Below, in pieces: positions 23,466-41,325 of a DNA stretch of 46,136 nucleotides. This DNA is from an uncultured Anaerolineae bacterium (GTDB taxonomy: Bacteria > Chloroflexota > Anaerolineae > SSC4 > Amarolineaceae), in contig CAZXQZ010000004.1 of NCBI GenBank assembly GCA_964642445.1, forward strand, positions 1 to 46,136, written 5' to 3'. Within the stretch, counting starts at the first letter, position 1, and every line of letters begins with the position of its first letter. The position numbers were made by a program, and so were the translations under genes. The notes under the pieces are model-generated. The model was not told the origin of the DNA. It searched no databases and saw only the letters and a list, made by a program, of their open reading frames with translations.

Positions 23466-23515
23466 AAACATGCCAGGCACCCGAGTCCCAAGGGTTCTGC
23501 AATCGTCCAGGCCCG

Positions 23516-24478: not shown

Positions 24479-24492
24479 GTGCTGCTCGCTGC

Positions 24493-24768: not shown

Positions 24769-24795
24769 GTCTCCTCCTTGCGCGCCTCACCCCTG

Positions 24796-25545: not shown

Positions 25546-25554
25546 GGTATTAAT

Positions 25555-25653
25555 TCACCAATTCACCATGGAAAATCCCTGCTTTATCGTCGAATTCAAC
25601 CACGCCGCCGTAGCCTTTAGTTTCCATTTTTTCCATTTTTTCCATTTTGCCAT
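25555..25653 (-). CDS. candidate micro-ORF encoding a 32-aa Trp/Lys-rich peptide (MAKWKKWKKWKLKATAAWLNSTIKQGFSMVNW)
   Basis: ATG to TGA, ending 9 nt before the methyltransferase start. It arises from a 9-bp tandem DNA repeat. The SD is weak. Confidence 0.2.
   Translation of the reverse strand: MAKWKKWKKWKLKATAAWLNSTIKQGFSMVNW
25621..25647. repeat. tandem repeat (TTTTTCCAT)x3, AT-rich
   Basis: A direct read gives TTTCCATTTTTTCCATTTTTTCCATTTT. Confidence 0.85.
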
Positions 25654-25699
25654 GATACCACGAAGTGATATCGAAACCAAAAACGCGCGGATCAGCTGA

Positions 25700-26746: not shown

Positions 26747-26921
26747 ACGTTGCGGCGATGCGATCGTGCCGGCAGCCGTGCGGCCGCGACCGGATGGCCC
26801 CAGGGCCCACAGCACGGCCAGGCGGGTCTGCTGTCGCGGCGTGCGCGACGGGCGCCGGAGGTTGTCCGCGCGGTGCTGGGCGGCCAGGGCCTGCTGTTGG
26901 GCTGGTGGCCACTGCAGGGGG

Positions 26922-28217
26922 TCACTCACACCCGCCACCTGCCGCCGGCTGGCTCGATATGCACGGCGGGGCACCGGTCGGAAAGAGGGCTTCGAGGCGG
27001 GGCACGATCCGGTCCCAGTCGTAGTGTGTCACGGCGTGGGCCTGCGCCTGGCCGCCCAGGCGCGACCGCAAGGCCTCATCCAACAGCAGACGCACCACCG
27101 CGGCGGCAAACGATGAAGCATCATCGGCGATGAGCATCTCCTGGCCATCGACGACGTCGATGCCTTCGATGCCCAGCGCAGTCGAGACGATTGCTTTGCC
27201 CATGGCCATGGCTTCCAGCGCCTTCAGGCGTGTTCCGCTGCCCATGCGGAACGGCAGGATGCAGACGGCCGCAGCAGCCAGGTAGGGTCGCACGTCTGGC
27301 ACGCGCCCGGTAAGCGTGATACCCGCCCGGCCGCGCAGCACGTCGAGACGGGGGTGCGGCTGCTGGCCAACCACCACGAGGTGGGCGTGCGGCAGCCGGG
27401 TCTGCACCTGCGGCAGGATCTGATCGGCAAACCACAGCACAGCGTCGACGTTGGGACGGTAGTCCATTTTGCCGGTGAAAACCAGGGCCAGCGGCGGTAG
27501 TCCGGCCAATGGCTCGACCACGCCGGGCGCATAGGTTTGCAGGTCCACCCCGTTAGGAACGACCGTCACGGGCAGGGAGGGCACCAGGGCCTGCAGTGCC
27601 GCGGCATCGCGTGGTGAGACGGTCACAACGTGATCGGCCTGCCGGCATACCAGCGCTTCGTACGCGCGCAGCTTCTGCCATTGGATGAAGGAGTACGCCG
27701 CACCGGGCCAGCGCCTGGGCTGGCGCGCATCGGTGAGGGCCACTCGCTGCTGCAGCCGGTACTCGGCGTTGTGGTCGTCGAAGATCAGAAAGGGGGCGCC
27801 GGCCGCCGGGCTGCTGCGCCAAACCGGCTGGTTCTGCAGCCACAAGGCATACGGGGCCATCTCGATGCCTTCCACCTGCACGACATCGTAGGCGGTGCTG
27901 GCAACCCAGTCCCCAAGCCGGGCTGCGAAATGATCGACGCCGGCCAGGCGCAGGGCCATGTCGGGTAGACGACTGCCGAGCGTCGTGCGCAGCCGCTGTG
28001 ACGGGGTGCGCGGCGGTGGTGCGGGCACCGCGGCTACCCGACGGCAGAGATCGACCAGCGGTGTGGCGGCGACCGGCGGGTCATTGCTTGCCTGCAGGCT
28101 CAAGACGTCGACCTGGTGACGCGCCGCCAGGCCGCGAATCAGGTTAAAATTACGAATCGTGGTACCCTGGTGGGGTGGATAGGGTAGCTGGGGTGTGAGC
28201 ACCAGGATGTGGGCCAT
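26922..28217 (-). CDS. glycosyltransferase family 4
   Basis: Begins MAHILVLTPQLPYPPHQGTTIRNF. The C-terminal EGFGLP-like motif is replaced by MGSGTRLKALEAMAMGKAIV. Start chosen at MAHIL. Confidence 0.7.
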   Translation of the reverse strand: MAHILVLTPQLPYPPHQGTTIRNFNLIRGLAARHQVDVLSLQASNDPPVAATPLVDLCRRVAAVPAPPPRTPSQRLRTTLGSRLPDMALRLAGVDHFAARLGDWVASTAYDVVQVEGIEMAPYALWLQNQPVWRSSPAAGAPFLIFDDHNAEYRLQQRVALTDARQPRRWPGAAYSFIQWQKLRAYEALVCRQADHVVTVSPRDAAALQALVPSLPVTVVPNGVDLQTYAPGVVEPLAGLPPLALVFTGKMDYRPNVDAVLWFADQILPQVQTRLPHAHLVVVGQQPHPRLDVLRGRAGITLTGRVPDVRPYLAAAAVCILPFRMGSGTRLKALEAMAMGKAIVSTALGIEGIDVVDGQEMLIADDASSFAAAVVRLLLDEALRSRLGGQAQAHAVTHYDWDRIVPRLEALFPTGAPPCISSQPAAGGGCE

Positions 28218-28240
28218 GCGTACCGGTCCGTTTGCCGGGC

Positions 28241-29395
28241 TCAGGACAGCGAGCCATTGGCGACGGGCTGGTTGGCCGCGGTCCCGTGCACAACCTGGCG
28301 GTAGACATCGAGGGTGCCGCGTGCCGCTCGCTCCCACGAAAAACGGCGGGCACGTTTGTAGCCTTTCTGCTGAAGCTCATACCAAAGCGTCTCGTCAGTC
28401 AGCACACGCCACAGGGCAACCGTCAGCCCTTCGACATCCTGGGGCGCCACCAGCAGCGCTGCGTCACCGACGACTTCGGGCAGACTGGATAGGTTAGACA
28501 CGATGGCTGGCGTGCCGCAGGCCATCGCTTCCAGGGGCGGGATGCCAAATCCTTCGTAGAATGAGGGGTAGGCCAGGCAGCGTGCCGCGTTGTAGAGCAG
28601 CACCAGGTCGCTGTCCTCGACCGATCCCAGGAAAAGGCAGCGTCCCTGGAGGTTCAACTCGTTGACCAGGTCGTACGCCTCTTGCGACAGCCAACCGCGG
28701 GCGCCGGCCAGCACGAGGGTGATGTCGAGTTTGTAATTGTCCAGCAGGCGGCGAAAGCTGCGCAGCAGACCCTGGACATTCTTGCGCGGCTCGATGGTGC
28801 TGACGAACAGAATGAATTCGTCGGGTACCGGGTGGCGGGCGCGCACCTGGGTCAGCGCCTGCTGCCGGTCCATCGGGCGGAAGATCGGGTTGGCTGCTTC
28901 GTAAATGACGCTGATCTTCTTCTCGTCGACCCCCAGCAGGTTGATGATATCGCGCCGCGTGCTCTTCGACACGGCGATGATGTGGTCGGCGGCGTGAACT
29001 GCCCGGTCGATCTGCCCGTAGTAGCGTGCGCTGTCCTTGGTCAGGAAATGCGGAAAGTGGAGGAAGGCCAGGTCGTGAATCGTAATGACCGATTTGCAGC
29101 CACGGGGCAGGCGTGCCGGTGGAATGAAATCGGTGCTGTGCAGAACATCGAGGCCCAAACCCGAGATCTCGAAACTGAGCGCGTATTTCTCCAGCCAATG
29201 ATGCGATGGGGTGCGAATGGGTACACGGCGAAAGTTCGCCTGTGGGGTGAATATGGCCTGGTCCTTGACGTGCTGCAGGATGAGAAACTCATCCTCGCTG
29301 TTCAGGGTTGCCAGTGCTTGCGTGAGACGCAGCGTGTACTGGCCGATGCCAGCTCGTGTGTAATGCGTAATTCGTGCATCAATTCCAATGCGCAT
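28241..29395 (-). CDS. glycosyltransferase family 4
   Basis: Begins MRIGIDAR. C-terminal [21 protein letters not shown]. Confidence 0.8.
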
Positions 29396-29622
29396 CAGCG
29401 TGGCAGTTCTCCGTCCGAATCCAGGGCACGCTCATCGAGCCAGCATGGCGCCAGTGCCAATCCGTGGCATTGCAGGTGTGGAGCATCGTTGAATCTTACC
29501 ACTGGCACGGCACTCCGTCAAAGATTGGTGATTACTCACGAATGTTTTACGATCGCCAGTGGACGTAATTGGTGCCGATCGATGCCGCCACGGACAAGAG
29601 CGCAGTGTTGCGCGGGTCACCA

Positions 29623-29651
29623 TTGGCGAGCGCGCAGAACCATGCTATAAT
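29623..29651 (+). promoter_or_regulatory. sigma70-like promoter TTGGCG-17-TGcTATAAT
   Basis: A consensus -10 with an extended TG. It lies 40 nt upstream of the ATG at 29692. Confidence 0.4.
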
Positions 29652-29691
29652 GCGTTCCCAGTACGCGACTATGAATCGAGGCAAAGAGCGG

Positions 29692-30885
29692 ATGGATACA
29701 ACTCAAATTGCGCAGATGGTGACCTGGCTCGACGAAGAGCATCGCCGAGACCGGGGCGAGGTGGCCAAACTCCAGCAGCGCATCGAAAGCCAGAGCGTCG
29801 AGATCCTGGAACAAGCACGACGTATTCAGGAACTGGAAGGACGCCTCGCCAGCACACAGGCACAGCTGGTGCGATTCACCCAGATCGATGAGCAGATGCA
29901 GCAGCTGAAGAACGAAGTGGTGTTGATGTTGCATAAACGCGACGAGCAGCTCGAGGCGGATACCCGCGAGCGCGAACGGTCGCGCGCAACCGATCGCGAA
30001 GCGACGGCGCGCGGCCTGGGCGAGGTCCGCAAAGAACTGAACCGGTTCGGCCGCATCGAGGAAGAGCTGGCGCTGCGCCGCTCCGAAGACCAACGGCTGA
30101 GCGAGCTGGTGATCAACTTGCGTCAGCAGGTCACAACGCTCAGCAAAGACATCGACGAACGCACCCGCAGCCTGCCCTACATGGTCGAGCAACGCACCCA
30201 GGACAACAAACGGATTGCCCAGCTGCAGCAGGAGACGGTCGAGCTGTTCAAGCGTATCGAGGAGCATGCCAACAAACTGCCCCCGGTACAGGAGCGGTTG
30301 CAGAAGGTCGAACGGGTGATCACCAGCATCCAACCGATCCCCCAGGACCTCAAGCGCGAACAGCAGCAGTTCATCGAACAGATGAGGCTGACCGACGTGG
30401 AGCGGGCACGCGAGATCGCCGCCTGGCACGATGAGATCGATGCGCAGCGCGAGACCATCACCCGGCACAAGGAATCTCTGCAGGCATTTGCCGAGCAGTT
30501 GGACGTCAGCAAACGTGCGGTGGCGACCATCGAAGGATTCCAGCAGGCGATTCAGCGCGACATGCATCAGCTGACCGAGCTGCAGCGGTTGTCCGAAGAG
30601 CGCCAGCAGAAAGAAATCGAAACCTGGCTGGCCGAAAACGAAAAACGTTGGAAACGCCAAATCTTGCAGTGGGAGCACGACACCCAGGAGCAGCAGAAGG
30701 TCAACAAAGCCCTGGGCACGCGCTTTCCACCCCTCGAGGAACGGCAGCGTGTCCACGAGGGCCAAATCCAGAAGCTTTGGAGTATGCATGAGATGGAGGG
30801 ACTGCAGCGTATTGCCGATGCGCAGCGCTGGCTGGCTCAGCTGGAAGAGCTGCTCAAAGACCGGATGGCGTCGAAGCATGCGTGA
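29692..30885 (+). CDS. hypothetical all-coiled-coil protein, translationally coupled to selB
   Basis: About 398 aa of uninterrupted heptad-rich Glu/Gln/Arg/Leu sequence with no transmembrane segment. Its stop lies 10 nt before the selB ATG. A 12-nt direct duplication GAAGCATGCGTG spans the junction. Confidence 0.6.
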   Translation: MDTTQIAQMVTWLDEEHRRDRGEVAKLQQRIESQSVEILEQARRIQELEGRLASTQAQLVRFTQIDEQMQQLKNEVVLMLHKRDEQLEADTRERERSRATDREATARGLGEVRKELNRFGRIEEELALRRSEDQRLSELVINLRQQVTTLSKDIDERTRSLPYMVEQRTQDNKRIAQLQQETVELFKRIEEHANKLPPVQERLQKVERVITSIQPIPQDLKREQQQFIEQMRLTDVERAREIAAWHDEIDAQRETITRHKESLQAFAEQLDVSKRAVATIEGFQQAIQRDMHQLTELQRLSEERQQKEIETWLAENEKRWKRQILQWEHDTQEQQKVNKALGTRFPPLEERQRVHEGQIQKLWSMHEMEGLQRIADAQRWLAQLEELLKDRMASKHA

Positions 30886-30895: not shown

Positions 30896-32815
30896 ATGCG
30901 TGTCATCGGTACCGCCGGCCACGTCGACCACGGCAAATCAACGCTGGTTCTTGCCCTGACCGGCATCGATCCTGATCGGCTTAAAGAAGAAAAAGCGCGC
31001 GAGATGACCATCGATCTCGGCTTCGCCTGGCTGACGCTGCCCGGCGCACAGGGTGAGCCGGAGCGGGTCGGAATTGTCGACGTGCCCGGGCACATCGATT
31101 TCATCAAGAACATGCTGGCCGGCATCGGGGGTATCGATGCCGCCCTGTTGGTGATTGCAGCCGACGAAGGGGTCATGCCGCAGACGCGCGAGCACGTCGC
31201 AATCCTGGACCTGCTGCAGGTGCCGGGCGGGGTCGTTGCCCTGACCAAAACCGACCTGGTCGAAGACGAGGAGTGGTTGTGGCTGGTGCAGGACGAGGTT
31301 CGCGAGGTGCTCAAAACGACCGTGCTGCGCGCCGCACCGATCGTGCCGGTGTCGGCACGGAAGCAGCAAGGGCTGGACGCGCTGCGCCAGGCCCTGGCGA
31401 CGACCCTGGCCCAGATCCCGGCACGGCTGAATCGGGGGCGGGCGCGCCTGCCGGTCGATCGTGCCTTCAGTATGGCCGGTTTTGGCACCGTCGTCACCGG
31501 CACCCTGCTCGATGGCGACCTGCGCGTGGGCGACGAAGTCGAAATCCTGCCGGCCGGTTTGACGGCGCGCGTACGCGGCTTGCAGGCACACAAAGAGAAG
31601 ATCGAAACGGCTCACCCCGGCAGCCGGGTAGCGGTCAACCTGAGCGGTGTCCATCCCGACCAGGTGCCGCGCGGGCAGACGCTCAGCCTGCCCGGGACGC
31701 TGCACAACAGTTATCTGCTCGACCTGCGCCTCCATCTGCTGCCCGGCGTGGCACCGCTCAAACACAACCAGTTGGTCGATTTCTTCAGCGGCGCGGCCGA
31801 AGTGCCGGCCTACGTCAGGCTGCTGGACAGCGAGCGCCTGGAACCGGGAACCGACGGCTGGGTGCAGTTGCGCCTGGTCGAGCCGCTGGCCCTGCTGCGC
31901 GGCGATCATTTCATCATCCGCCAGCCCTCGCCCAGCCATACCCTGGGCGGCGGCCTGGTGGTCGATCCCCGGCCAGCCCGGCGCTGGCGCCGCATGCGCG
32001 CTGATGTGATTCGCCGGCTGGAAACGCTCCAGCACGGCACACCCGGCGACATCTGGCTGCAAGCACTCATGCGCGAAGAACCGTCCACCCCGCGCACGGT
32101 CGATGCGCGCAGCGGCCTGCCGGCTGGCAGCGCCCATGCCGCCTGGCAAGAGGTGGTGGCGCGCGACGACCTGGTGGCGCTCGGCCTGCAAACCAGCCTG
32201 GGACCAGACACGCTGGTGATGTCGCGCGGTGGCTGGAGCCAGGTTACCGATCAGCTGCTGGCGATCCTGGCGGACTATCACCGTAGCTACCCCCTGCGGG
32301 CGGGCATGCCGCGCAGCGAACTAAAGTCGCGCCTGGACCAGGGCCGGCGAACCGCCCTGGCGGCACGCGCGTTTGCGGATATTCTCGCCCGTGCCGCCGA
32401 GGAAGGCTTGCTGCACGTCACCGAATCGGTGGTGTACCAGGCAGGGCACCAGGTGACGTTTTCCCCGGCCCAGGAGAAACTGGTGCAGCAGCAGCTGGCC
32501 CTGTTTCGCCGCCAGCCGTTCACCCCACCGGGCATCGACGAGACACGCAGCGTGCTGGGTGACGATGTGCTGGCCGCCCTGTTCGAGCAGGGAAGGCTGG
32601 TCAAACTCAACGATGATGTGGCGCTGGACGCGGCGGCCTATAAAGACATGGTCGATACGATTCGCCAGATTATTCAGCAGGAGGGCAGCGTCACGGTTGC
32701 GCAGGTGCGTGACCGGTTCAACACCAGCCGCAAGTATGCCCTGGCGATCCTGGAGTATCTGGACGCGCAGCGGGTGACGCGGCGCGTGGGAGATGGGCGG
32801 GTGTTGCGATTTTAG
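30896..32815 (+). CDS. selB: selenocysteine-specific translation elongation factor SelB
   Basis: The N-terminal GTPase region MRVIGTAGHVDHGKSTL...DRLKEEKAREMTIDLGFAW aligns to E. coli SelB MIIATAGHVDHGKTTL...DRLPEEKKRGMTIDLGYAY. The 639-aa length includes the C-terminal winged-helix extension. Confidence 0.85.
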   Translation: MRVIGTAGHVDHGKSTLVLALTGIDPDRLKEEKAREMTIDLGFAWLTLPGAQGEPERVGIVDVPGHIDFIKNMLAGIGGIDAALLVIAADEGVMPQTREHVAILDLLQVPGGVVALTKTDLVEDEEWLWLVQDEVREVLKTTVLRAAPIVPVSARKQQGLDALRQALATTLAQIPARLNRGRARLPVDRAFSMAGFGTVVTGTLLDGDLRVGDEVEILPAGLTARVRGLQAHKEKIETAHPGSRVAVNLSGVHPDQVPRGQTLSLPGTLHNSYLLDLRLHLLPGVAPLKHNQLVDFFSGAAEVPAYVRLLDSERLEPGTDGWVQLRLVEPLALLRGDHFIIRQPSPSHTLGGGLVVDPRPARRWRRMRADVIRRLETLQHGTPGDIWLQALMREEPSTPRTVDARSGLPAGSAHAAWQEVVARDDLVALGLQTSLGPDTLVMSRGGWSQVTDQLLAILADYHRSYPLRAGMPRSELKSRLDQGRRTALAARAFADILARAAEEGLLHVTESVVYQAGHQVTFSPAQEKLVQQQLALFRRQPFTPPGIDETRSVLGDDVLAALFEQGRLVKLNDDVALDAAAYKDMVDTIRQIIQQEGSVTVAQVRDRFNTSRKYALAILEYLDAQRVTRRVGDGRVLRF

Positions 32816-32828: not shown

Positions 32829-34472
32829 TTAGTCGAGGTTCCCGTGGACGAGGTGGCCGTCGAGGAGGGTGGCGTCGATTTGGGTGGTGAGGACCTCTTC
32901 GGGATTGATGTGGTAGATGTCGCGTGAGAGAACGACCAGGTCGGCCAGTTTGCCGGGGGTGACCGATCCCTTGATGCTTTCTTCCCCGCTGGCGTAGGCC
33001 GCACCCAGCGTATAGGCGCGCACGGCCTGTGCGACGGTGATGCGTTCCTGCGGAATCCAGCCGTCTTGCCCTGGCGTACCGTCGGCGCGACGGCGCGTGA
33101 TTGCGGCGTGAATCCCTGCCAGCACGTCGAAGGGCTCGACCGGGGCGTCCGAGCCAAACGCAAGCACAGCCCCTGCCTGCGCCACGCTGTGCCAGGCGTA
33201 AGCCCCACGCGTGCGTGCTGTGCCCCAGTGTCGTTCGGCGTTTAGCATATCGGACGTGGCATGAATGGGCTGCATCGATGCCACCAGGCCAGCGCGGGCC
33301 AGCCGGGGCAGGTCGGCTGGATGAATAACCTGCACGTGCTCGACGCGGTGGCGCAGCGGGGGCCAGGGGCGGTTGGGTACCGCCTGCCCGGCCTGCCACT
33401 CCGGTTCGGCACGGCGCACGATCTCGAACGTGTCCAGGACCGCACGATTGGCGCGGTCACCAATGGCGTGCACCATGATGCTGAGCCCTGCCGCACTGGC
33501 ACGCAGCGCCTCCTCGGTGAATTCTTCGGGATCGATCGTGCACACCCCACGCCAGTCCGTTTCCCCCGCATACGGCTCCAGCATCCAGGCCGTGCGTGAA
33601 CCAAGGGCCCCATCAGCGAAGAATTTGACGCCGCCGATGCGCAGCCATTCACTGCCGAACCCGCTCTGGATACCCAGCTCGATGGCTGCTGCCAGGTGCT
33701 CGCGCGGCAGGTTTTGGTTGACGCGCAGCCCCAAGGCGCCCTGGCGCTGCAAGGTCTGGAAAGAGCGCAGGGCCAGGGCCTGCGGTGTGTCGTTGGCTTC
33801 TTGAATGCTCGTAATCCCGGCAGCCCAGGCCAGGGGAGTGGCGGCCCGCAGCGCCGCGCAGCTCTCGTCCAGGTCAGGCCGATCCACGGCATTGTCCAGT
33901 AGTTTGATGGCGTTTTCGCGCAGAATACCGGTTGGTGCACCGCTGACCGGGTCGCGCTCGATGACACCGTCGTCCGGGTCGGGCGTGGCGGCGCCGATAC
34001 CGGCTCGCGCCAGGGCCAGGCTGTTGACCCACACCGAATGCCAGTCGTGGCTGTCCAGCAGCACAGGGTGATGGGGTGTCACGGCGTCCAGCAGGGCACG
34101 GGTGGGGGTGCCTTCGGGCCAGACGTTGGCATCCCAACCCCCGCCGCGAATCCACTGGCCGGGTGCCGTGCGGGTGGCACGCTCTGCCACACGGGAGACC
34201 GCTTCCCCGGCCGAGGTTGCGTCGGCCAGCTCGATCCAATGGCGGCGCAGGGCCCAGCCCACGAAATGGATGTGCGCGTCGTTGAACCCGGGCAGCACCG
34301 TCCGTCCGCCCAGGTCCACGCGGCGGGTGGCCGGACCGGCCAGGTGGGCCAGGTCATCGCCGACGGCCAGGATACGCCGGCCAGCCAGGGCCAGGGCTGT
34401 GGCCACAGGCTGCCGGTCATCCTGTGTGTAGACGCGGGCATTATCCAGCAACAGCGTGGCGGTTGAAGTCAC
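32829..34472 (-). CDS. metal-dependent amidohydrolase (amidohydrolase 3 family)
   Basis: Metal-binding motif NDAHIHF, and a 547-aa amidohydrolase-3 layout. Its start overlaps the parB stop by 4 nt. Confidence 0.8.
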   Translation of the reverse strand: MTSTATLLLDNARVYTQDDRQPVATALALAGRRILAVGDDLAHLAGPATRRVDLGGRTVLPGFNDAHIHFVGWALRRHWIELADATSAGEAVSRVAERATRTAPGQWIRGGGWDANVWPEGTPTRALLDAVTPHHPVLLDSHDWHSVWVNSLALARAGIGAATPDPDDGVIERDPVSGAPTGILRENAIKLLDNAVDRPDLDESCAALRAATPLAWAAGITSIQEANDTPQALALRSFQTLQRQGALGLRVNQNLPREHLAAAIELGIQSGFGSEWLRIGGVKFFADGALGSRTAWMLEPYAGETDWRGVCTIDPEEFTEEALRASAAGLSIMVHAIGDRANRAVLDTFEIVRRAEPEWQAGQAVPNRPWPPLRHRVEHVQVIHPADLPRLARAGLVASMQPIHATSDMLNAERHWGTARTRGAYAWHSVAQAGAVLAFGSDAPVEPFDVLAGIHAAITRRRADGTPGQDGWIPQERITVAQAVRAYTLGAAYASGEESIKGSVTPGKLADLVVLSRDIYHINPEEVLTTQIDATLLDGHLVHGNLD

Positions 34473-35371
34473 GTGCTCTCCCCCAGGATGGCCTCGTAGA
34501 CACTCTGCAGCTCTTCGTCCGAGTAGAAGTGGATCACCAGGCGTCCGCGCCCGCGGCGGTTACGGCTGACATCTACCTTGGTGCCCAACCGGTCGCGCAG
34601 CAACTGCTGCATGGCCTGGACGTGCACGGCCTGCGGATCATCCTCGGCGATCGGCTCGTCCTCTTCGCTGGCAGTGGCCAGGAGCAGGCGCCGTACCAGT
34701 TCCTCTGTTTGACGCACGGTCAGGCTGCGGCGCAGCACCAGGGCCAGCGCCTCCACCTGCAGGTCCTCTTCTTCCAGCCCCAGCAGGGCACGCGCATGGG
34801 CCTCGCTGATTTTGCCGGTGATCAGGGCCTCTTTGACCGGCTCACTCAGACGCAGCAGGCGCAGCGCATTGGTCACCGTGACGCGCGCTTTGCCGACACG
34901 GGTTGCGACCTGGGCCTGGGTCAAACCGAACTCATCCACCAGCATTTTGTACGCGGCCGCCTCTTCCAGGGGGTTCAAGTCGGCACGCTGCACATTTTCC
35001 ACCAGAGCCAACTCCAGCAGCGCCTGGTCGCTAGCTTCTTTGATGACAGCCGGTATCTGCTGCAGACCGGCCAGGCGCGCTGCCCGCCACCGCCGTTCAC
35101 CGGCAATGATGTAGTATACAGGGCCGGTGCCCGTATCATGACCCGGTCCGTGGGTCACCACCAACGGCTGAATCAGGCCATGTTCACGAATCGAATCGGC
35201 CAGCTCTTGCAGCGCCGTGGGATCGAAGCTCTGCCGCGGCTGGCGTGGGTTGGGTGCAATGGCATCGATGGCAATTTCGGACAGGGCCGGTCCGGCGGTG
35301 GTGGGCGCCGCGGGTGTCGTTGGGATCAGGGCACCCAGGCCGCGCCCCAGGCCGCGTTTGGGGTTGTTCAC
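34469..35371 (-). CDS. parB: chromosome partitioning protein ParB/Spo0J
   Basis: GLGRGLGALIP is the ParB box. Confidence 0.9.
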   Translation of the reverse strand: MNNPKRGLGRGLGALIPTTPAAPTTAGPALSEIAIDAIAPNPRQPRQSFDPTALQELADSIREHGLIQPLVVTHGPGHDTGTGPVYYIIAGERRWRAARLAGLQQIPAVIKEASDQALLELALVENVQRADLNPLEEAAAYKMLVDEFGLTQAQVATRVGKARVTVTNALRLLRLSEPVKEALITGKISEAHARALLGLEEEDLQVEALALVLRRSLTVRQTEELVRRLLLATASEEDEPIAEDDPQAVHVQAMQQLLRDRLGTKVDVSRNRRGRGRLVIHFYSDEELQSVYEAILGEST

Positions 35372-36162
35372 GGTTGTTTTGCTCCTGCGATCTGCGCTAC
35401 TACTTCGCGTGCCAGTGCGGTATAGGCGACCGCACCTGGCGAGCGCGGTGCAAAGCTCAAAATCGTCTCGCCAAAGCTGGGGGCCTCACTCAGGCGTACG
35501 TTGCGCGGGATAATGGTTTCGAAAACGGGCACCGGTGCGTGTTCGCGAATCTCGCTGACGACCTGCTGCGACAGGTTGGTGCGCCCATCATACATGGTCA
35601 TCACCAGGCCGCGCACCTTCAGGGTGGGGTTCAAACTGGTGCGCACCAGGTCGATCGTCGACAGCAGCCGGGCCAGGCCTTCCAGGGCGAAGTATTCGCA
35701 TTGGATGGGGACGATGACCCCGCTGCTGGCCGCTGTGAGCGCGTTGACGGTCAGCAACCCCAGGCTCGGTGGACAGTCCAACAAGACGAAGTCGTACGGC
35801 TCCGTCACGTGCTGCAGGAGCGCAGCCAGGGCGCGACGCAGCACGTGCTCACGCGCCAGCGTGGCCACCAGCTCGACCTCTGCTCCAGCCAGGGCCGGTG
35901 TTGCTGGCAGCAGATCGACGCCCACGTGGTAGGTCAGCGTAACCGCCTGCTGCGCCGGCACCTGGTCGATGATCACATCGTACAGGCAGTAGATCAGATG
36001 GTTGGGGTTGATGCCCAGGTGGCTGGTTGCATTGGCCTGGGGATCACAGTCCACCACTAACACGCGCCTATTTTCCGCGGCCAGGCAGGCTGCCAGGTTG
36101 ACCACCGTGGTAGTCTTGCCAACGCCCCCTTTTTGATTGGCAAACGCCAGGACGTGCGTCAT
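35368..36162 (-). CDS. parA: chromosome partitioning ATPase ParA/Soj
   Basis: The deviant Walker A motif NQKGGVGKTTT. Confidence 0.9.
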   Translation of the reverse strand: MTHVLAFANQKGGVGKTTTVVNLAACLAAENRRVLVVDCDPQANATSHLGINPNHLIYCLYDVIIDQVPAQQAVTLTYHVGVDLLPATPALAGAEVELVATLAREHVLRRALAALLQHVTEPYDFVLLDCPPSLGLLTVNALTAASSGVIVPIQCEYFALEGLARLLSTIDLVRTSLNPTLKVRGLVMTMYDGRTNLSQQVVSEIREHAPVPVFETIIPRNVRLSEAPSFGETILSFAPRSPGAVAYTALAREVVAQIAGAKQP

Positions 36163-36181
36163 GCTTGGATGACCTTACCGG

Positions 36182-37069
36182 TTACAGGGTATCGCCATGC
36201 TGCGCCAGCCACGCTTCCACCGCGGCACGCTGCGGAATCGATTGAAAGCCCGATCCTTCTACGGAAAATGAAGCAGTCACGCCGGCGAAACGCGCGGCTT
36301 CGATGGCCTGACCGGTTTCGGCCAGACGAATCAGAAAAGCGGTGGCAAACACATCGCCGGCGCCGGTGGGATCGGTTTCTGCTGCGGGTCGGGTACCCAC
36401 TGCGGTCATCTCATCGTGCTGCCAGACGTGTGAGCCGCGTGGCCCATAGGTGACGACCACAATGGGGCACAGTGCCCGGTAGACGACCAGGTCTTCTTTG
36501 TGCTGTAAGTCGGCCTCGCTCAAGATGAGGGCCGAAAGTGCGGGCAGCACGATTTCAGCATGGGTCCAGCGCTGCGGCGAGACGACACCCTCCGCATCCC
36601 ACTGGCGCATCCAGCCCTGCGGCACCGCCCCGATGATTGACCCGTGCAGCACCGACAGGAGAGACGGGTCGGCCTCCTGGGCGATGGGGCCGAGCAGGGT
36701 CACGGGGACGTTCTGCCAGGCGGCCGGCAGGTCACCCGCCATGATAGGTGGCGCCACATCGGTCACGATCTGGCGGCGCGTCTGGCCAGTGTACTGGTTA
36801 CGGAACGTCGTCGTGGTTGCCGATGGCAGCCGGTGAACGACCACCTGGTCCCATTCGCCAGTCAGTGGCGTATCAGGGGCCAGGCGTGTCAACGCCCCCG
36901 GGCGGTGTGCCAGGCGATGAGCGGTTATGGCGGCGTAGGAGACGGTCCCACCGAGTGCAAAACCACCGCCGGGCAGCAGATCGCGTGTGACGTTGCCAAT
37001 GGCCAAAAAATCGATCGCTGCGGGTGCGGCTGCGTGCTGCTCAAAAAACATTGCTTGCGTGGGCTGCAT
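36182..37069 (-). CDS. PfkB-family carbohydrate kinase
   Basis: The C-terminal PfkB signature DPTGAGDVFATAF. It ends 19 nt upstream of parA. Confidence 0.75.
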   Translation of the reverse strand: MQPTQAMFFEQHAAAPAAIDFLAIGNVTRDLLPGGGFALGGTVSYAAITAHRLAHRPGALTRLAPDTPLTGEWDQVVVHRLPSATTTTFRNQYTGQTRRQIVTDVAPPIMAGDLPAAWQNVPVTLLGPIAQEADPSLLSVLHGSIIGAVPQGWMRQWDAEGVVSPQRWTHAEIVLPALSALILSEADLQHKEDLVVYRALCPIVVVTYGPRGSHVWQHDEMTAVGTRPAAETDPTGAGDVFATAFLIRLAETGQAIEAARFAGVTASFSVEGSGFQSIPQRAAVEAWLAQHGDTL

Positions 37070-37126
37070 GGTCTCTCGAATTCATGATTGGATTGCTGTG
37101 ATTGTAACATAGGCCGCGGGTGCCAC

Positions 37127-37190
37127 AAAAAAGCGCCGGGGGGTATGGCAGCACATGCATGCTGCCATACCCCCCGGCGCGTCTGGTTGT
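37127..37190 (-). terminator. rho-independent terminator after jag (21-bp perfect stem + U-tract on minus strand)
   Basis: GCGCCGGGGGGTATGGCAGCA and TGCTGCCATACCCCCCGGCGC pair as a perfect 21-bp stem. AAAAAA on the plus strand gives UUUUUU on the minus strand. Confidence 0.6.
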
Positions 37191-37263
37191 GCAGCGGGCG
37201 GCCAGATATTTCACGACGTGGGGTAGTGCGGTGGCCAGGGTCGCCGCATGCGACACGGGGCCA

Positions 37264-38130
37264 TCACTGTTTTTTCGGTACGATGGTCACTTTGCGGTGT
37301 TCGCCTTCGCCCACACTCTGGGTTGTTACCTCTGGATGATCGCGCAGGGTCAAGTGTATGATACGCCGCTCGCGTGCGGTCATTGGTTCCAGGGCCAGGG
37401 TGCGTCCGGTGGCCGCCACACGCTCGGCGGTCCGCTGGGCCAGCTGCTGCAGGGTGCGCTCGCGACGGTTCTTGTACTCCTCGACGTCGACGACCACGTT
37501 GACCCAGCGTTCCAGCTTGTGATTGACCATTAGCCGGGTTACGTACTGCAGCGCGGTCAGTGTTTCACCGCGACGGCCGATCAGGATGCCGAGGTCGTTG
37601 CCGACGATATCGAGGACCAGGGCAGGTTCCTCATTTTTGTCGCGTACGCCGTCGTTTGCATAATGCCCGCGCACCGTGGCTTGCACACCCATCAGGCGCA
37701 GGAGATCGGAGAGCATGCCGGAGGCGACGGCAATAGCATCCTCGGCTCCTTCAGCAGATGGCTGGGCCGCCGGCGGTTTGGGTGCAGTGCTGGGTACCTG
37801 GGCACTGCGCGGGGCAGGGGCCGGTGTTGTGCTCGAAACGGCCGGTTTTGTTGTCGTGGCGGCCGGTGCCGACGGCTTGGCCATTGGCGGTGGTTCTGCA
37901 CGGGGTGGCCGCGACGGTGGGGCCGCCACGGCTGGAGGCTTCACGATGGGTCGTGGAGTCAGCCGCACGCGCGCGTCTTCGGCGCCAAAACCCAAAACGC
38001 CGCGACTGCCTGCGGTGATGACCTCGACATCGACCTGCTCGCGCGTCAGGTTGAGCCGCCGCAGGCCCTCCTCGATGGCGGCGTTCACATTCTTGGCGCG
38101 AACTTCGATACTTTCTGCCTGATTCGACAT
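37264..38130 (-). CDS. jag: Jag/KhpB RNA-binding protein (Jag_N, KH, R3H)
   Basis: The N-terminal Jag domain, an Ala/Pro-rich linker and the C-terminal R3H motif RERRIIHLTL. Confidence 0.8.
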   Translation of the reverse strand: MSNQAESIEVRAKNVNAAIEEGLRRLNLTREQVDVEVITAGSRGVLGFGAEDARVRLTPRPIVKPPAVAAPPSRPPRAEPPPMAKPSAPAATTTKPAVSSTTPAPAPRSAQVPSTAPKPPAAQPSAEGAEDAIAVASGMLSDLLRLMGVQATVRGHYANDGVRDKNEEPALVLDIVGNDLGILIGRRGETLTALQYVTRLMVNHKLERWVNVVVDVEEYKNRRERTLQQLAQRTAERVAATGRTLALEPMTARERRIIHLTLRDHPEVTTQSVGEGEHRKVTIVPKKQ

Positions 38131-38135
38131 AGAAA

Positions 38136-39140
38136 CTACTTCCTCTTCCTACGACGGCGCGTTGGATCTTGGGCTGGTTCAGATGTTTCGGCCGGCGCAT
38201 TCGGTTCGGTGATGAGCGGTGGATCGGCTACGACTGACGCGCTGATGGCTGGCGCTGGTGCGGTTGTTTTGGCACGCGGTATCAAACCTGGAATACGCAG
38301 CGAACCCCAACCTGTCACGGTATACTGCTGAATCATGGCCAGGATATTCGATACGACCCAGTACAGTGACAGACCGGAAGGGACCTGCAGGCTGAAGAAA
38401 CCAAACATGATCGGCATGAACAGCATCATCTGCCCCATCATCGCCTGCTGTGAATCCTGCTGCTGGCCACTGGTTCGCGGCGGTTGGGACATCTTCTGCA
38501 TCATGATCTGGGTAACGACCAGCACGACGGGTAGAATCAGGTACGCAATCAGGAGCCAGATTTGGCCGCTCTGGAAGTATTCGGTGATCCAGCTGAGACC
38601 AACCGCAGCCGACGGAAACGACAGGTCAGGAATCCAGAAGAAGGCCTGGCCCACGAGCTCCCCGGTGTTGGCCAGGTGATAGAGCGCCTGGTAGAGACCA
38701 AACAGGATCGGCATCTGGATAAGCAGCGGTAAGCAGCCGCCCAACGGATTGACGCCCGCCTCTTTGTACAACTCCATCTGCGCCTGGGACAGTTTTTCAC
38801 GATCCTTACCATACTTCTTCTGCAGCTCCTGTAGTTTGGGCTGCAGCTCCTGCGTGGCCTTCATCGACTGCATCTGTTTGCGCGTCAGAGGCAGGGTGAT
38901 CACCTTGACCAGCACGGTGAAGATGATAATCGCAAAACCAAAACTGTAGGGGATGCCAATCGATGCCAGCGCGTCGTTGATCCACTCCAGGATATTGGCC
39001 ATGGGGTAGACCACGAGGGTTTGCCAGAGGCCCTCCGGTGGTGCATTGGGGTCGGTAGTCGTCGGTACACCGCAGCCGGTGAGCAGCAGCATGACCACCA
39101 GCAGTGCGAAAAGAAGGCCGACCGTACGTTTCTTGGACAT
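38136..39140 (-). CDS. yidC: membrane protein insertase YidC
   Basis: The YidC/Oxa1 core helices, and its position in the rnpA-yidD-yidC-jag operon. Confidence 0.9.
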   Translation of the reverse strand: MSKKRTVGLLFALLVVMLLLTGCGVPTTTDPNAPPEGLWQTLVVYPMANILEWINDALASIGIPYSFGFAIIIFTVLVKVITLPLTRKQMQSMKATQELQPKLQELQKKYGKDREKLSQAQMELYKEAGVNPLGGCLPLLIQMPILFGLYQALYHLANTGELVGQAFFWIPDLSFPSAAVGLSWITEYFQSGQIWLLIAYLILPVVLVVTQIMMQKMSQPPRTSGQQQDSQQAMMGQMMLFMPIMFGFFSLQVPSGLSLYWVVSNILAMIQQYTVTGWGSLRIPGLIPRAKTTAPAPAISASVVADPPLITEPNAPAETSEPAQDPTRRRRKRK

Positions 39141-39179
39141 GAAGTGATCCTTGGCGAGAAATGAAAAACTGTGGCCTGT

Positions 39180-39392
39180 TCAGGGTACGGGGTCGAATCC
39201 CCCAGGGTGCCAGGGGTGGCAGCGAGAAATCCGTTTGGCCCCCATCCAACCCCCTCTGAGGACGCCGTAGCGTTCGATGGCTTCGTAGGTGTACTGTGAG
39301 CAGGTCGGCACGAATCGGCAGCTCGCCGGCAAGAGCGGCGAGAGTAACTTTCTATAGATCCGGATCAAAAACAGAGCCAGAGATTTGAACAT
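39180..39392 (-). CDS. yidD: membrane protein insertion efficiency factor YidD
   Basis: 70 aa, with the [10 protein letters not shown] motif. Confidence 0.85.
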
Positions 39393-39410
39393 AACTGCAG
39401 CTAATTTACC

Positions 39411-39758
39411 TCAGGACGTTGCCGGCATCAGTAATTGTGCTCGCCTTAATAAGGTCAAACAGGCCGCTTCGATCTCGTCGAACCCGGCCTGTGACAAGGC
39501 GGGACGGGCAATGAATACCAGGTCCCAGCCGCTGGCAATGGACGGCAGCGCACGGCGCACCGCTTCACGCAGGCGCCGGCGGGCTCGATTGCGCTGCACA
39601 GCGTTGCCCAGCCGGCGGCTGACCGAAAAGCCGAAACGGCTGGTTTCGCTGTCGTTGGGAAGGGCACACAATACCAACAACGGACCTGCCCATGATTTAC
39701 CTTCACTGCGCACCTGTTGGAAGCGCTCTCGCCCACGCAGGCTGTAAAGGCGCTTCAC
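39411..39758 (-). CDS. rnpA: RNase P protein component
   Basis: 115 aa, basic, with the RNR motif FGFSVSRRLGNAVQRNRARRRLRE. Confidence 0.9.
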   Translation of the reverse strand: MKRLYSLRGRERFQQVRSEGKSWAGPLLVLCALPNDSETSRFGFSVSRRLGNAVQRNRARRRLREAVRRALPSIASGWDLVFIARPALSQAGFDEIEAACLTLLRRAQLLMPATS

Positions 39759-39779
39759 CGCCTCTATTCCTTTGCCACC

Positions 39780-39947
39780 CTACTTGGGCGGCATCTTGCG
39801 CCAGCTCAACGTCACCGTCAAGCGCCGGCGTCCTTTGGCGCGACGAGCTTTGAGCACATTACGGCCGTCCGTCGTCTGCATTCGCTTACGAAAACCATGG
39901 ACGCGCAGCCGACGGCGTACTTTTGGCTGCCATGTTCGTTTGGGCAT
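39780..39947 (-). CDS. rpmH: 50S ribosomal protein L34
   Basis: Hand translation of the minus strand gives [45 protein letters not shown]... An SD (GGAGG) lies upstream. Confidence 0.9.
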
Positions 39948-40193
39948 TTTCTATATTCCTCCGGTTTGGGCGAGCCTGGCCGGCACACCGCTTGATATCA
40001 CCACAACCAGATCAATGATCCCGGTCGTATCGATGTATGAATTCAATGCTGAACGTCAAACAGCAGAAAAACGGGGGAGGAAGCCTGTGGCTCCTCTCCC
40101 GTGTCGGCGCCAATTATACCTGGCGTGCCTGTAGGCTGTCAAATTGTGTGGCAATGGGGCGTGTTGCCGCCCGCGTGGGCGGCTGCAAGAACC

Positions 40194-40222
40194 TTGCCAA
40201 GCCACGCCCGTGCGTCTATAAT
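40194..40222 (+). promoter_or_regulatory. near-consensus sigma70 promoter TTGCCA-17-TATAAT upstream of selD
   Basis: -35 at 40194-40199, a 17-nt spacer, and -10 TATAAT at 40217-40222. It lies about 40 nt before the selD ATG. Confidence 0.45.
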
Positions 40223-40263
40223 GCTTGCTGGCGTTACGATTAATCCTACCAGACGAGTGACTC

Positions 40264-41325
40264 ATGTTGACAGAAGACGCACGTGCGCGTATTCGCCTGA
40301 CCAGTTTGTCGAGCTGCGCGGGCTGAGCATCCAAGCTGGCCCCTGAGGCCCTGGCGCAGGTGCTGCGCCAACTCGGTCCGGTTTTTGATGAGCAGGCCCA
40401 CCCCGAGGTCCTGGTCGGCTTGAACGCGCCCGACGATGCGGTGGTGTATCGGCTGTCCCCCGAACGTGCACTGGTGGTGACGACCGACTTTTTTACCCCG
40501 ATCGTGGATGATCCCTACACCTTTGGCGCCATTGCGGTCACCAATGCCCTGAGTGACGTGTACGCGATGGGTGGTGAGGTTTTGTTTGCTCTCAATATCG
40601 CGGCATTTCCCGAAAATCTACCGTCGGAGGTGGTCACGGAAATATTGCGCGGCGGGGCCGAGCAGGTGCGGCGGGCTGGTTCGGTGATTGCTGGCGGCCA
40701 CACAGTCAAGAACCCCGAACCGCTGTATGGCCTGGCCGTCATCGGTGAAGCGCATCCCGACCGCATCTTTCGTAAGACTGGGGTCCAGCCCGGGGACGTG
40801 TTAGTGCTCAGCAAGCCGCTCGGCACCGGCCTGGTGACAACGGCACTGAAGCGGGAAAAGGCCGCACCCGAGCACGTGGCGGCGGTTGTGGCCAGCATGC
40901 TGCTGCTCAACCGTGACGCCGCCCGGGCTGGCCTGGCGGCCGGTGTGCGCTGTGCAACCGACATCACGGGGTTTGGTTTGCTGGGTCACGCCGTCGAGAT
41001 GGCGCTGGGCAGCCTGGCTGCGCTGCGGTTGTCGATGTCTGCCCTACCCCTGCTGCCAGGTGTCCGGTCGTATGCCGAGGCCGGGATGGTGCCGGGTGGC
41101 ACTGAAAGCAACCGGGCATATTTTGCACCGCAGGTGCAGCTCGATCCGGCGTTGACCGTCGTGGACGAATGGATACTGCATGACCCGCAGACATCGGGCG
41201 GGTTGCTGCTGGCCGTGCCGGCCGCCGGGCTGCCCCACTTTCTGGCGGATTGTGCTGGGTCCGGCCAGGCGGTGTGGGTGATTGGCCAGGCCGTCGAAGG
41301 CCACGGCGTTCAAGTTGTTGCCTGA
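40264..41325 (+). CDS. selD: selenide, water dikinase (selenophosphate synthetase) with in-frame UGA selenocysteine codon
   Basis: MLTEDARARIRLTSLSSCAG-U-ASKLAPEALAQVLRQ aligns to E. coli SelD [24 protein letters not shown]. The TGA at 40324-40326 falls at the Cys17 position. VVTTDFFTPIVDDPYTFGAIAVTNALSDVYAMGG matches the SelD core. Confidence 0.85.
40353..40369 (+). promoter_or_regulatory. candidate bSECIS apical hairpin (GGCGCA-GGUGC-UGCGCC)
   Basis: A 6-bp stem with a 5-nt GGU-containing loop, about 27 nt 3' of the UGA. Confidence 0.25.

What the first reader, a model, noticed from the sequence alone, without database searches (positions are those of the whole stretch)
40264..40369. Selenocysteine-containing SelD (UGA at the Cys17 position) with candidate SECIS hairpin
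The upstream reading frame continues through TGA 40324-40326. The alignment CAG-U-ASK to E. coli GCG-C-K puts the UGA at the catalytic Cys. The ORF track split the gene for this reason. A GGU-loop hairpin (40353-40369) lies at bSECIS-compatible distance. Selenoprotein SelD makes selenium use self-reinforcing, and automated annotation would mis-call this gene as N-truncated.
Basis: partly seen in the sequence, partly recalled or inferred. Interest (0 to 1): 0.55.

Follow-up and report, generated by a model that had tools for sequence, protein, structure and literature searches.

The report
Selenocysteine-encoding selD gene with SECIS hairpin
This is an ordinary but correctly spotted case of a well-known recoding event: the selenophosphate synthetase gene (selD) of a Chloroflexota bacterium has a UGA codon read as selenocysteine at its catalytic site, followed by the RNA hairpin that directs the recoding, and gene callers routinely truncate such genes.

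Summary
Window 40264-41325 (+) is one selD reading frame interrupted only by TGA 40324-40326. That codon aligns with catalytic Cys17 of E. coli SelD and with the Sec13 position of Aquifex SelD. The next Lys aligns with Lys20.

The TGA is not a sequencing error. Five independent assemblies of close relatives (84-99% protein identity) keep it. Of 79 related selD loci with upstream sequence, mostly Chloroflexota MAGs, 71 have TGA in that column and 8 have TGC or TGT.

The hairpin at 40352-40370 (8 bp, loop GUG, 33 nt after the UGA, -12.9 kcal/mol) meets all four published bSECIS criteria. On this sequence alone it is only marginally unusual. Across 72 Sec-type genes it is far better paired than synonymous recoding allows (5.85 vs 4.11±0.12 of 7 pairs). 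All 7 pairs show compensatory changes, and the Cys-type genes pair less well.

selB, with its SECIS-binding winged-helix domain, lies in the same window (30896-32815). selA and tRNA-Sec are not in the window.

Sec-containing SelD is the second most widespread bacterial selenoprotein family, and its misannotation is documented. This is a new member of a known kind and of low interest.

The parts
40194..40222 (+). Sigma-70-like promoter (TTGCCA, 17 nt, TATAAT) about 40 nt upstream of the selD start codon
   Evidence: Consensus scan: 11 of 12 matches. Three sites were found in the region against 0.4±0.6 in shuffles. This is a consensus match only; function is inferred.
40264..41325 (+). Complete selD coding sequence (353 codons including Sec21), selenide, water dikinase
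   Evidence: Translation. TIGR00476 selD scores 369.6 bits against a cutoff of 125, and NF002098 scores 348.9 against 299. E. coli SelD 3u0o matches at E = 2.8e-73 over residues 9-349. The first in-frame start after the stop at 40258-40260 is ATG 40264.
40324..40326 (+). In-frame UGA read as selenocysteine (residue 21), in the motif S-C-A-G-U-A-S-K
   Evidence: Aligns with Cys17 of E. coli SelD and the Sec13 position of Aquifex SelD. TGA in 71 and TGC/TGT in 8 of 79 orthologous loci. Kept in five independent assemblies of close relatives.
40338..40351 (+). First, weaker hairpin between the UGA and the SECIS (alignment columns 15-28). In the window it forms 4 of 5 pairs, with a C·C mismatch and loop CUGA
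   Evidence: 66.7% of cells are paired across 72 sequences, and all 5 pairs show changes on both sides. Observed 3.33 pairs against a synonymous null of 2.78±0.10. It fails the loop-G rule in the window, so my scan did not call it.
40352..40370 (+). Candidate bSECIS apical hairpin: 8-bp stem UGGCGCAG/CUGCGCCA, loop GUG (40360-40362), 33 nt after the UGA
   Evidence: MFE structure. Stem energy is -12.9 kcal/mol, and it is the only hairpin meeting the bSECIS rules after this UGA. Across 72 sequences 83.5% of cells are paired and 7 of 7 pairs have double changes, while slid registers give at most 53% over the whole two-helix structure. Observed 5.85 pairs against a synonymous null of 4.11±0.12. 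The Ala codon in the stem is GCG in 50 of 54 cases against 35% gene-wide.
40360..40362 (+). GTG (Val33) that ORF finders take as a false start. It is also the SECIS loop
   Evidence: ORF list. The five closest database proteins are all 321 aa, and the two read (P0001, P0005) begin MLRQLG.
30896..32815 (+). selB, the selenocysteine-specific elongation factor that should bind the hairpin
   Evidence: TIGR00475 selB scores 348.4 bits against a cutoff of 242.25. Pfam finds GTP_EFTU, Beta-barrel_SelB, SelB-wing_2 and SelB-wing_3, the last at residues 592-637 with 73.3 bits. It is syntenic in the relative L081.

Best explanation
Window 40264-41325 encodes a full-length selenophosphate synthetase (SelD). 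Its catalytic residue 21 is selenocysteine, encoded by UGA 40324-40326.

Proposed mechanism:
1. Translation starts at ATG 40264.
2. When the UGA reaches the ribosomal A site, SelB·GTP·Sec-tRNA(Sec) is tethered to the mRNA hairpin at 40352-40370. The hairpin's G-U loop bases lie 33 nt downstream of the UGA.
3. SelB is encoded 7.4 kb upstream in the same window.
4. SelB delivers Sec instead of letting release factor 2 terminate.
5. The product carries the Sec-x-x-Lys loop that activates selenide with ATP to make selenophosphate.

Shown here:
- The gene is SelD.
- The UGA sits on the catalytic Cys/Sec column.
- The UGA and both flanking peptides are conserved across many independent genomes.
- The hairpin meets the bSECIS consensus and is under RNA-level selection.
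- selB is present.
- UGA is otherwise a normal stop in this genome.

Inferred, not shown:
- Actual Sec insertion.
- SelB binding to this particular hairpin.
- The presence of selA and tRNA-Sec elsewhere in the genome.
For: - SelD identity, including the pre-UGA peptide: (the profile starts at residue 11).
- The UGA aligns with Cys17 of E. coli SelD and with the Cys at the Sec13 position of Aquifex SelD.
- Sec/Cys column: 71 TGA, 8 TGC/TGT. The peptide ...RLT.L..CAG[U/C]A.K..PEALAQVLRPL is conserved across the stop.
- Five independent assemblies keep the TGA. In the 20 codons upstream, the 84% relative differs at 6 codons synonymously and 1 non-synonymously. That segment is therefore translated in this frame.
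- Hairpin covariation and register control.
- Synonymous-codon null: 5.85 vs 4.11±0.12 pairs. The stem Ala codon is GCG in 50/54 against 35% gene-wide.
- Cys-type genes pair at only 1-5 of the 7 positions.
- The bSECIS criteria quoted from PMC13188914 are all met.
- selB with the SelB-wing_3 domain is present.
- TGA is the ordinary stop of 19 of 33 genes in the window, including selD itself. A local signal is therefore required.
- tRNA-SeC lies beside selD in two related loci.
- Literature: SelD is the second most widespread prokaryotic selenoprotein family (PMC13188914; PMC1794560).
Against: - On the window sequence alone the hairpin is not statistically remarkable: z = -1.5, and 6-10% of synonymous recodings also give 7 pairs.
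- RNAalifold returned no consensus structure on the full 72-sequence alignment.
- 14 of 72 Sec-type sequences have no hairpin passing my strict bulge-free scan. 18 use a differently placed hairpin, so the element is not uniform.
- The loop G-U sits at +37/+38 from the UGA, whereas in E. coli fdhF it is at +23/+24 (my own knowledge). There is also no bulged U.
- No tRNA-Sec and no selA were found in the window.
- Rfam has no matching family.
Confidence: 0.9

Rival explanations
1. The functional SECIS is not the 40352-40370 hairpin. It could instead be the first hairpin (40338-40351) or a composite of both. On this view the second hairpin's conservation reflects some other RNA or peptide constraint.
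For: The first hairpin is also above the synonymous null, at 3.33 vs 2.78±0.10 pairs, and shows covariation. Its loop lies at +20 to +23, close to the E. coli fdhF geometry (my own knowledge). In 13 of 72 relatives a qualifying hairpin sits there instead. The BSepDB example for Acetomicrobium SelD appears to show its 'canonical SECIS' over the equivalent region, though that is my own reading of a truncated quoted sequence (PMC13326102).
Against: [quoted passage not shown] It therefore fails the published consensus and my scan. The second hairpin is much better conserved (83.5% vs 66.7% of cells paired). It is the modal qualifying hairpin (46 of 72). It pairs less well in the Cys-type genes.
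Confidence: 0.12
2. The UGA is a genuine stop. The real product would then be an N-truncated SelD starting at GTG 40360, or the gene is a pseudogene.
For: Gene callers produce exactly this model, and many database entries are of this form.
Against: The truncated protein would lack the Sec/Cys17 and Lys20 loop, which is essential for SelD catalysis (established knowledge for E. coli SelD). The 20 codons before the UGA match the SelD profile. They are conserved in 79 loci and evolve mainly by synonymous change. No pseudogene would keep one stop codon in one column across 71 genomes, with Cys codons as the only alternative.
Confidence: 0.03
3. The TGA is a sequencing or assembly error for TGC/TGT.
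For: None found.
Against: The same TGA is present in five independently assembled contigs from different sequencing runs (L081-L085) and in 71 of 79 more distant loci.
Confidence: 0.01
4. UGA is decoded as a standard amino acid, either Trp/Gly/Cys by a reassigned code or by near-cognate suppression.
For: UGA reassignment exists in some bacterial lineages (general knowledge).
Against: TGA terminates 19 of 33 genes in this window, including selD itself. The only alternative at this column is Cys, the hallmark of Sec. selB is present.
Confidence: 0.02

Closest known systems
Sec-containing SelD (selenophosphate synthetase selenoprotein) of bacteria, e.g. Aquifex aeolicus SelD (Sec13; PDB 2yye/2zod solved with Cys at that position) and Haemophilus influenzae SelD
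   Same: Same enzyme family and the same position of the UGA in the N-terminal G-U-x-x-K loop. The window has SCAGUASK, and the Aquifex chain has SSG[C]AAK at the Sec13 position. It shows the same Sec/Cys interchange among orthologues. It also has the same annotation problem (PMC13326102).
   Different: The host lineage is an uncultured Chloroflexota relative, with the best species representatives in GTDB at 58-59% identity. A Cys lies three residues before Sec, giving a C-x-x-U motif. There is no second Cys at the E. coli Cys19 position, where this protein has Ser.
E. coli SelD (Cys17 form; PDB 3u0o)
   Same: E = 2.8e-73, aligned over residues 9-349. The N-terminal loop, Lys20 and the DDA, TTDFF, NAxSDxxAMGG and TDxTGFG motifs are visibly conserved in the alignment.
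   Different: E. coli uses Cys (TGC) at position 17 and needs no SECIS. This gene uses UGA/Sec.
Bacterial SECIS consensus (bSECISearch model of Zhang and Gladyshev, as summarised in PMC13188914) and the E. coli fdhF SECIS
   Same: A stem-loop inside the coding sequence just downstream of the UGA. It has a small apical loop with G then U, a stable G+C-rich upper stem, and spacing within 16-37 nt.
   Different: The spacing of 33 nt is near the upper limit. The loop G-U is at +37/+38, against +23/+24 in fdhF, and there is no bulged U (comparison from my own knowledge of fdhF). A second, weaker conserved hairpin fills the gap between the UGA and the apical hairpin.

Membership tests
SelD, selenide, water dikinase (NCBIfam TIGR00476 / NF002098) | Whole-protein score above the curated cutoff of the equivalog model | tested here: met
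   TIGR00476 scores 369.6 bits against a cutoff of 125. NF002098 scores 348.9 bits against a cutoff of 299.
SelD, selenide, water dikinase (NCBIfam TIGR00476 / NF002098) | N-terminal glycine-rich loop with catalytic Cys/Sec (E. coli Cys17) and Lys (Lys20) | tested here: met
   The phmmer alignment to 3u0o places the UGA codon on Cys17 and Lys24 on Lys20.
SelD, selenide, water dikinase (NCBIfam TIGR00476 / NF002098) | AIR-synthase-related N and C domains (PF00586, PF02769) | tested here: met
   Both domains are precomputed for P0001, which is 99% identical to the window protein from residue 33 on. The protein aligns end to end with E. coli and Aquifex SelD structures.
SelD, selenide, water dikinase (NCBIfam TIGR00476 / NF002098) | ATP-dependent selenophosphate synthesis | not testable with these tools
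   Requires an enzyme assay.
Bacterial selenoprotein gene (Sec-UGA recoding) | In-frame UGA aligned with Cys in homologues, with protein conservation on both sides | tested here: met
   71 TGA against 8 TGC/TGT in the same column. The flanking peptides are conserved. Change upstream of the UGA is mainly synonymous.
Bacterial selenoprotein gene (Sec-UGA recoding) | Sec-specific elongation factor SelB in the genome | tested here: met
   Window 30896-32815: TIGR00475 scores 348.4 bits against a cutoff of 242.25, and SelB-wing_2 and SelB-wing_3 domains are found.
Bacterial selenoprotein gene (Sec-UGA recoding) | tRNA-Sec (selC) and Sec synthase (selA) in the genome | tested here: inconclusive
   Neither is present in the 46-kb window. 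The rest of the genome is not available. tRNA-SeC lies beside selD in the related loci L069 and L079.
Bacterial selenoprotein gene (Sec-UGA recoding) | Selenium actually incorporated at the UGA | not testable with these tools
   Needs 75Se labelling or mass spectrometry.
bSECIS consensus (criteria as quoted in PMC13188914, Fig. 2 legend) | Apical loop of 3-9 nt and upper stem of 4-16 bp | tested here: met
   Loop GUG (3 nt) with an 8-bp stem at 40352-40370.
bSECIS consensus (criteria as quoted in PMC13188914, Fig. 2 legend) | At least one G in the first two loop positions (pattern N1-G-[G|U]-N-N2) | tested here: met
   The sequence G-G-U-G-C at 40359-40363 fits the pattern. G37 is present in 70/72 and U38 in 72/72 orthologues.
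bSECIS consensus (criteria as quoted in PMC13188914, Fig. 2 legend) | [quoted passage not shown] | tested here: met
   33 nt (40327-40359), read directly from the sequence.
bSECIS consensus (criteria as quoted in PMC13188914, Fig. 2 legend) | MFE <= -7.5 kcal/mol | tested here: met
   -12.9 kcal/mol for the 19-nt stem-loop and -13.9 kcal/mol for the 21-nt segment.
bSECIS consensus (criteria as quoted in PMC13188914, Fig. 2 legend) | Binding by SelB and dependence of read-through on the hairpin | not testable with these tools
   Needs EMSA and reporter assays.
E. coli fdhF-type SECIS geometry | Loop G-U at +23/+24 from the U of UGA, and a bulged U in the upper stem (from my own knowledge of fdhF) | tested here: not met
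   The loop G-U is at +37/+38, and the stem has no bulge. The element therefore works like a bSECIS but does not have the E. coli geometry.

The most novel reading that the evidence does not exclude
In this Chloroflexota selD clade the SECIS may be a two-hairpin element. A conserved spacer hairpin (40338-40351) would position a distal SelB-binding hairpin whose G-U loop lies about 14 nt further from the UGA than in the E. coli paradigm. This would be a distinct bSECIS geometry. It might be coupled to a C-x-x-U active-site motif, which could form a selenenylsulfide.
Probability: 0.2. Interest if true: 0.3.

Novelty: new member of a known kind. Interest (0 to 1): 0.15.

Why it matters
- Annotation: the gene should be annotated as a 353-residue selenoprotein with a translation exception at 40324-40326, not as a 321-residue truncated SelD.
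- Organism: together with selB in the same window, it marks this organism as a selenocysteine user.
- Database: of the 120 closest database entries, only 2 cover 97-100% of the query, and both are Cys forms. The other 118 cover 82-93%. All five of those that were read start after the UGA. In 71 of 79 related genomic loci the gene carries the UGA. The N-terminal active site is therefore probably missing from most public protein records for this clade.
- Beyond that: it adds no new principle. Sec-containing SelD and its misannotation are well documented (PMC1794560, PMC13188914, PMC13326102).

Tried and rejected
- Rfam, at gathering thresholds over the whole window and at E <= 10 over 39900-40500, gave no SECIS or tRNA-Sec match, only noise hits.
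- ARAGORN found no tRNA in the window.
- RNAalifold on the 72-sequence alignment predicted no consensus structure. I therefore tested an explicit structure with pair counts and register controls, and with synonymous-codon nulls.
- A brute-force list of TGA-joined open frames was uninformative in this 60%-GC sequence.
- A stricter scan required a TGA, an open frame on both sides and a strong bSECIS-like hairpin. It returned 5 sites, and only the selD site is in a real gene's frame. The other four are antisense to, or out of frame with, family-supported genes.
- The 438-aa ORF just upstream of selB (29569-30885) was tested as a possible selA. It has no hit in NCBIfam or Pfam, so it is not SelA.
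- The methyltransferase at 24796-25545 gave weak partial hits to 'methyltransferase selenoprotein' models. These cover only the generic methyltransferase domain and fall far below the cutoffs. This was rejected.
- No ybbB/selU was found among the ORFs annotated.

Full report
**1. The observation**

The + strand from ATG 40264 reads MLTEDARARIRLTSLSSCAG*ASKLAPEALAQVLRQLGPVFDE... and continues without another stop to TGA 41323-41325. The asterisk is TGA 40324-40326.

One codon upstream of the ATG there is an in-frame stop (40258-40260). ATG 40264, or TTG 40267, is therefore the only possible start.

The mechanical ORF list shows only 40360..41325, 321 aa from a GTG.

**2. Identity of the gene**

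With Cys substituted at the stop, the 353-residue protein scores as follows:

| NCBIfam model | Score (bits) | Cutoff (bits) |
|---|---|---|
| selD TIGR00476 | 369.6 | 125 |
| NF002098 | 348.9 | 299 |

The TIGR00476 profile match begins at residue 11. The 20 codons before the TGA are therefore part of SelD.

Against solved structures the best match is E. coli SelD 3u0o (E = 2.8e-73, residues 9-349). In that alignment SSCAG[U]ASK lies on SHGAG-C17-GC-K20. In the Aquifex aeolicus SelD chain (2yye), SSG-C-AAK lies on the same columns. That Cys stands at the position of the natural Sec13, which I state from my own knowledge of the Aquifex enzyme. The DDA, TTDFF, NAxSDxxAMGG and TDxTGFG motifs are visibly conserved in the alignment.

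**3. Not an error, and not a stop**

*Database entries.* Of the 120 closest database entries, 118 cover only 82-93% of the query. The five closest (P0001-P0005, 84-99% identical) are all 321 aa. Seven sequences were read:
- The five truncated ones begin after the UGA, including two that NCBI names SelD (P0034, P0079).
- The two full-length ones (P0062, P0108) have CAG-C-A[SG]K.

*Close relatives.* I fetched the contigs of the closest relatives. Five independently assembled contigs from different runs (L081-L085) all keep the TGA. In the 84%-identical relative, the 20 upstream codons differ at six codons synonymously and at one non-synonymously. That is the signature of a translated segment.

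*Wider relatives.* Eighty related loci came from species-representative genomes, mostly Chloroflexota MAGs plus a few Rokubacteria, Methylomirabilia and others. Seventy-nine have upstream sequence:
- 71 carry TGA in this column.
- 8 carry TGC or TGT.
- The peptide ...RLT.L..CAG[U/C]A.K..PEALAQVLRPL is conserved across the stop.

*Stop-codon usage.* TGA is also the normal terminator of 19 of 33 genes in the window, including selD itself. The code is therefore not reassigned, and a local signal is required.

**4. The hairpin**

*In this sequence.* The MFE fold of the 67 nt from the UGA contains an 8-bp stem UGGCGCAG/CUGCGCCA with loop GUG at 40352-40370. The stem-loop alone is -12.9 kcal/mol.

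The published bSECIS consensus is quoted in PMC13188914 (Fig. 2 legend). Its four criteria are all met:

| Criterion | This hairpin |
|---|---|
| Loop 3-9 nt, stem 4-16 bp | 3-nt loop, 8-bp stem |
| G in the first two loop positions, usually N1-G-[G/U]-N-N2 | G-G-U-G-C |
| 16-37 nt from UGA to loop | 33 nt |
| MFE <= -7.5 kcal/mol | -12.9 kcal/mol |

It is the only qualifying hairpin after this UGA.

*Statistical weight on this sequence alone.* It is weak:
- The fold has z = -1.5.
- The peptide LAQVLRQ yields a perfect 7-pair stem in 6-10% of synonymous recodings.

*Comparative evidence.* This is what carries the claim. It rests on a gap-free alignment of 72 Sec-type genes (A1):
- Columns 30-36/40-46 are paired in 83.5% of cells, and all seven pairs show changes on both sides.
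- Over the tested two-helix structure, sliding the 3' partners by 1-3 columns drops pairing from 76.5% to at most 53%. It roughly halves the covariation score.
- With each gene's own codon usage, synonymous recoding gives 4.11±0.12 pairs against 5.85 observed.
- The Ala codon inside the stem is GCG in 50 of 54 cases, although GCG makes up only 35% of Ala codons in the same genes.
- When the first stem position changes from G (Ala) to U (Ser), the third position of the Arg codon opposite it changes from C/U to A/G.
- In L083 an A-to-G change turns an A-U pair into G·U.
- The eight Cys-type genes pair at only 1-5 of the 7 positions.

*Caveats:*
- RNAalifold found no consensus structure on the full alignment.
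- 14 of 72 sequences fail my strict bulge-free scan.
- 13 have a qualifying hairpin with its loop near column 21, and 5 (Rokubacteria/Methylomirabilia) have one with a GAUC loop at column 25.
- The element is therefore not uniform across the family. The window belongs to the majority class (46 of 72).

**5. A second hairpin**

Columns 15-28 (40338-40351) form a second, weaker hairpin. It is 66.7% paired and shows covariation. It lies above the synonymous null, at 3.33 vs 2.78±0.10 pairs.

In the window it has a C·C mismatch and a CUGA loop, so it fails the loop-G rule.

Its loop lies where the E. coli fdhF loop would be (+20 to +23). The window's qualifying loop G-U is at +37/+38, against +23/+24 in fdhF, and it has no bulged U. 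The fdhF comparison rests on my own knowledge.

The element thus fits the general bSECIS model but not the E. coli geometry. I keep 'the first hairpin, or both together, is the real SECIS' as the main rival, at about 0.12.

**6. The trans-acting machinery**

- selB is in the window at 30896-32815. TIGR00475 scores 348.4 bits against a cutoff of 242.25.
- Pfam finds the GTPase, beta-barrel and winged-helix domains. These include SelB-wing_3 at residues 592-637, the SECIS-binding end.
- selB is syntenic in L081.
- No tRNA, no Rfam hit, no selA and no ybbB were found among the window's ORFs.
- The 438-aa ORF just before selB has no family hit, so it is not SelA.
- ARAGORN does find tRNA-SeC beside selD in two related loci, L069 and L079.
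- Whether this genome has selA and selC cannot be decided from 46 kb.

**7. Context**

selD is transcribed divergently from rpmH-rnpA-yidD-yidC-jag. parA, parB and selB lie further along that side.

The spacer holds two strong sigma-70-like consensus promoters:
- 40142→40113 on the - strand, with 12 of 12 matches.
- 40194-40222 on the + strand, with 11 of 12 matches.

The + strand promoter would place the transcript start about 35 nt before ATG 40264. This is a consensus match only.

**8. Comparison with what is known**

- FdhA and SelD are the two most widespread bacterial selenoprotein families (PMC1794560).
[quoted passage not shown] - Selenoprotein-rich Chloroflexota (Dehalococcoidia) are listed there as well.

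This is therefore a new member of a known kind. The finding is ordinary, and its practical value is correcting the annotation.

The most novel reading that remains open is a clade-specific distal or two-hairpin SECIS geometry, possibly with a C-x-x-U active-site motif (probability about 0.2, modest interest).

**9. Verdict**

- Observation: confirmed.
- Interpretation: supported.
- Confidence that this is a Sec-encoding selD: 0.9.
- Confidence that 40352-40370 is the SelB-binding hairpin: about 0.75.
- Interest: 0.15.

Noticed in passing
window 30896-32815 (+): selB, the selenocysteine-specific elongation factor with SelB winged-helix domains, lies 7.4 kb upstream of selD. It is syntenic in relative L081. 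The finding did not mention it.
   Followed up: yes
window 29569-30885 (+): A 438-aa ORF (TTG start) ends 10 nt before selB. It has no NCBIfam or Pfam hit. The gene at the same position in L081 also has no Pfam hit. It is not SelA, and its function is unknown.
   Followed up: partly
window 40113-40142 (-) and 40194-40222 (+): Two near-perfect divergent sigma-70-like promoters (12/12 and 11/12 matches) lie in the rpmH|selD spacer. Three sites were found against 0.4±0.6 expected in shuffles.
   Followed up: partly
window 40338-40351 (+); alignment A1 columns 15-28: A second conserved hairpin lies between the UGA and the candidate SECIS. It is above the synonymous-codon null across 72 genes but imperfect in the window (C·C mismatch, CUGA loop).
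   Followed up: partly
window 40315-40326 (+), residues 18-21: The motif C-A-G-U has a Cys three residues before Sec, in the way of a CxxU redox motif. It is present in most of the Chloroflexota SelD loci. The E. coli Cys19 position is Ser here.
   Followed up: no
L060, L062, L063, L067, L072 (about 17-36 nt after the UGA): The selD genes of Rokubacteria/Methylomirabilia use a different hairpin after the UGA: CUCCUGGA-GAUC-UCCAGGAG, 8 bp, loop starting at column 25. They do not use the Chloroflexota GGCGCAG-GUN-CUGCGCC hairpin.
   Followed up: partly
L069 2740-2836 (+); L079 5938-6034 (+): tRNA-SeC genes (anticodon TCA) lie directly beside selD in two related Chloroflexota loci. None is present in the window or in L081.
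   Followed up: partly
L083, position equivalent to window 40358: A natural A-to-G variant in the SECIS stem (Gln to Arg) converts an A-U pair into G·U, which preserves the pairing.
   Followed up: no
window 11-5450 (+): A 1131-aa TPR-containing protein is followed by a GNAT acetyltransferase (3403-3930) and a radical SAM/SPASM peptide maturase (3927-5450; best hit PapB family, below cutoff). This may be a RiPP-type cluster. No precursor peptide was looked for.
   Followed up: no
window 10454-29395: A large cell-envelope and exopolysaccharide gene block. It holds GT4 glycosyltransferases, a Wzz-like chain-length determinant and tyrosine autokinase in the same frame separated by a TGA (12584-13246 / 13250-13942), RmlA, RmlB, a heptosyltransferase, a polysaccharide deacetylase, and CARDB and choice-of-anchor B proteins.
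   Followed up: no
window 34469-39947 (-): An origin-proximal type gene string, rpmH-rnpA-yidD-yidC-jag, then pfkB-family kinase, parA and parB. selD takes the place where dnaA often sits next to rpmH. No dnaA was seen in the window.
   Followed up: no
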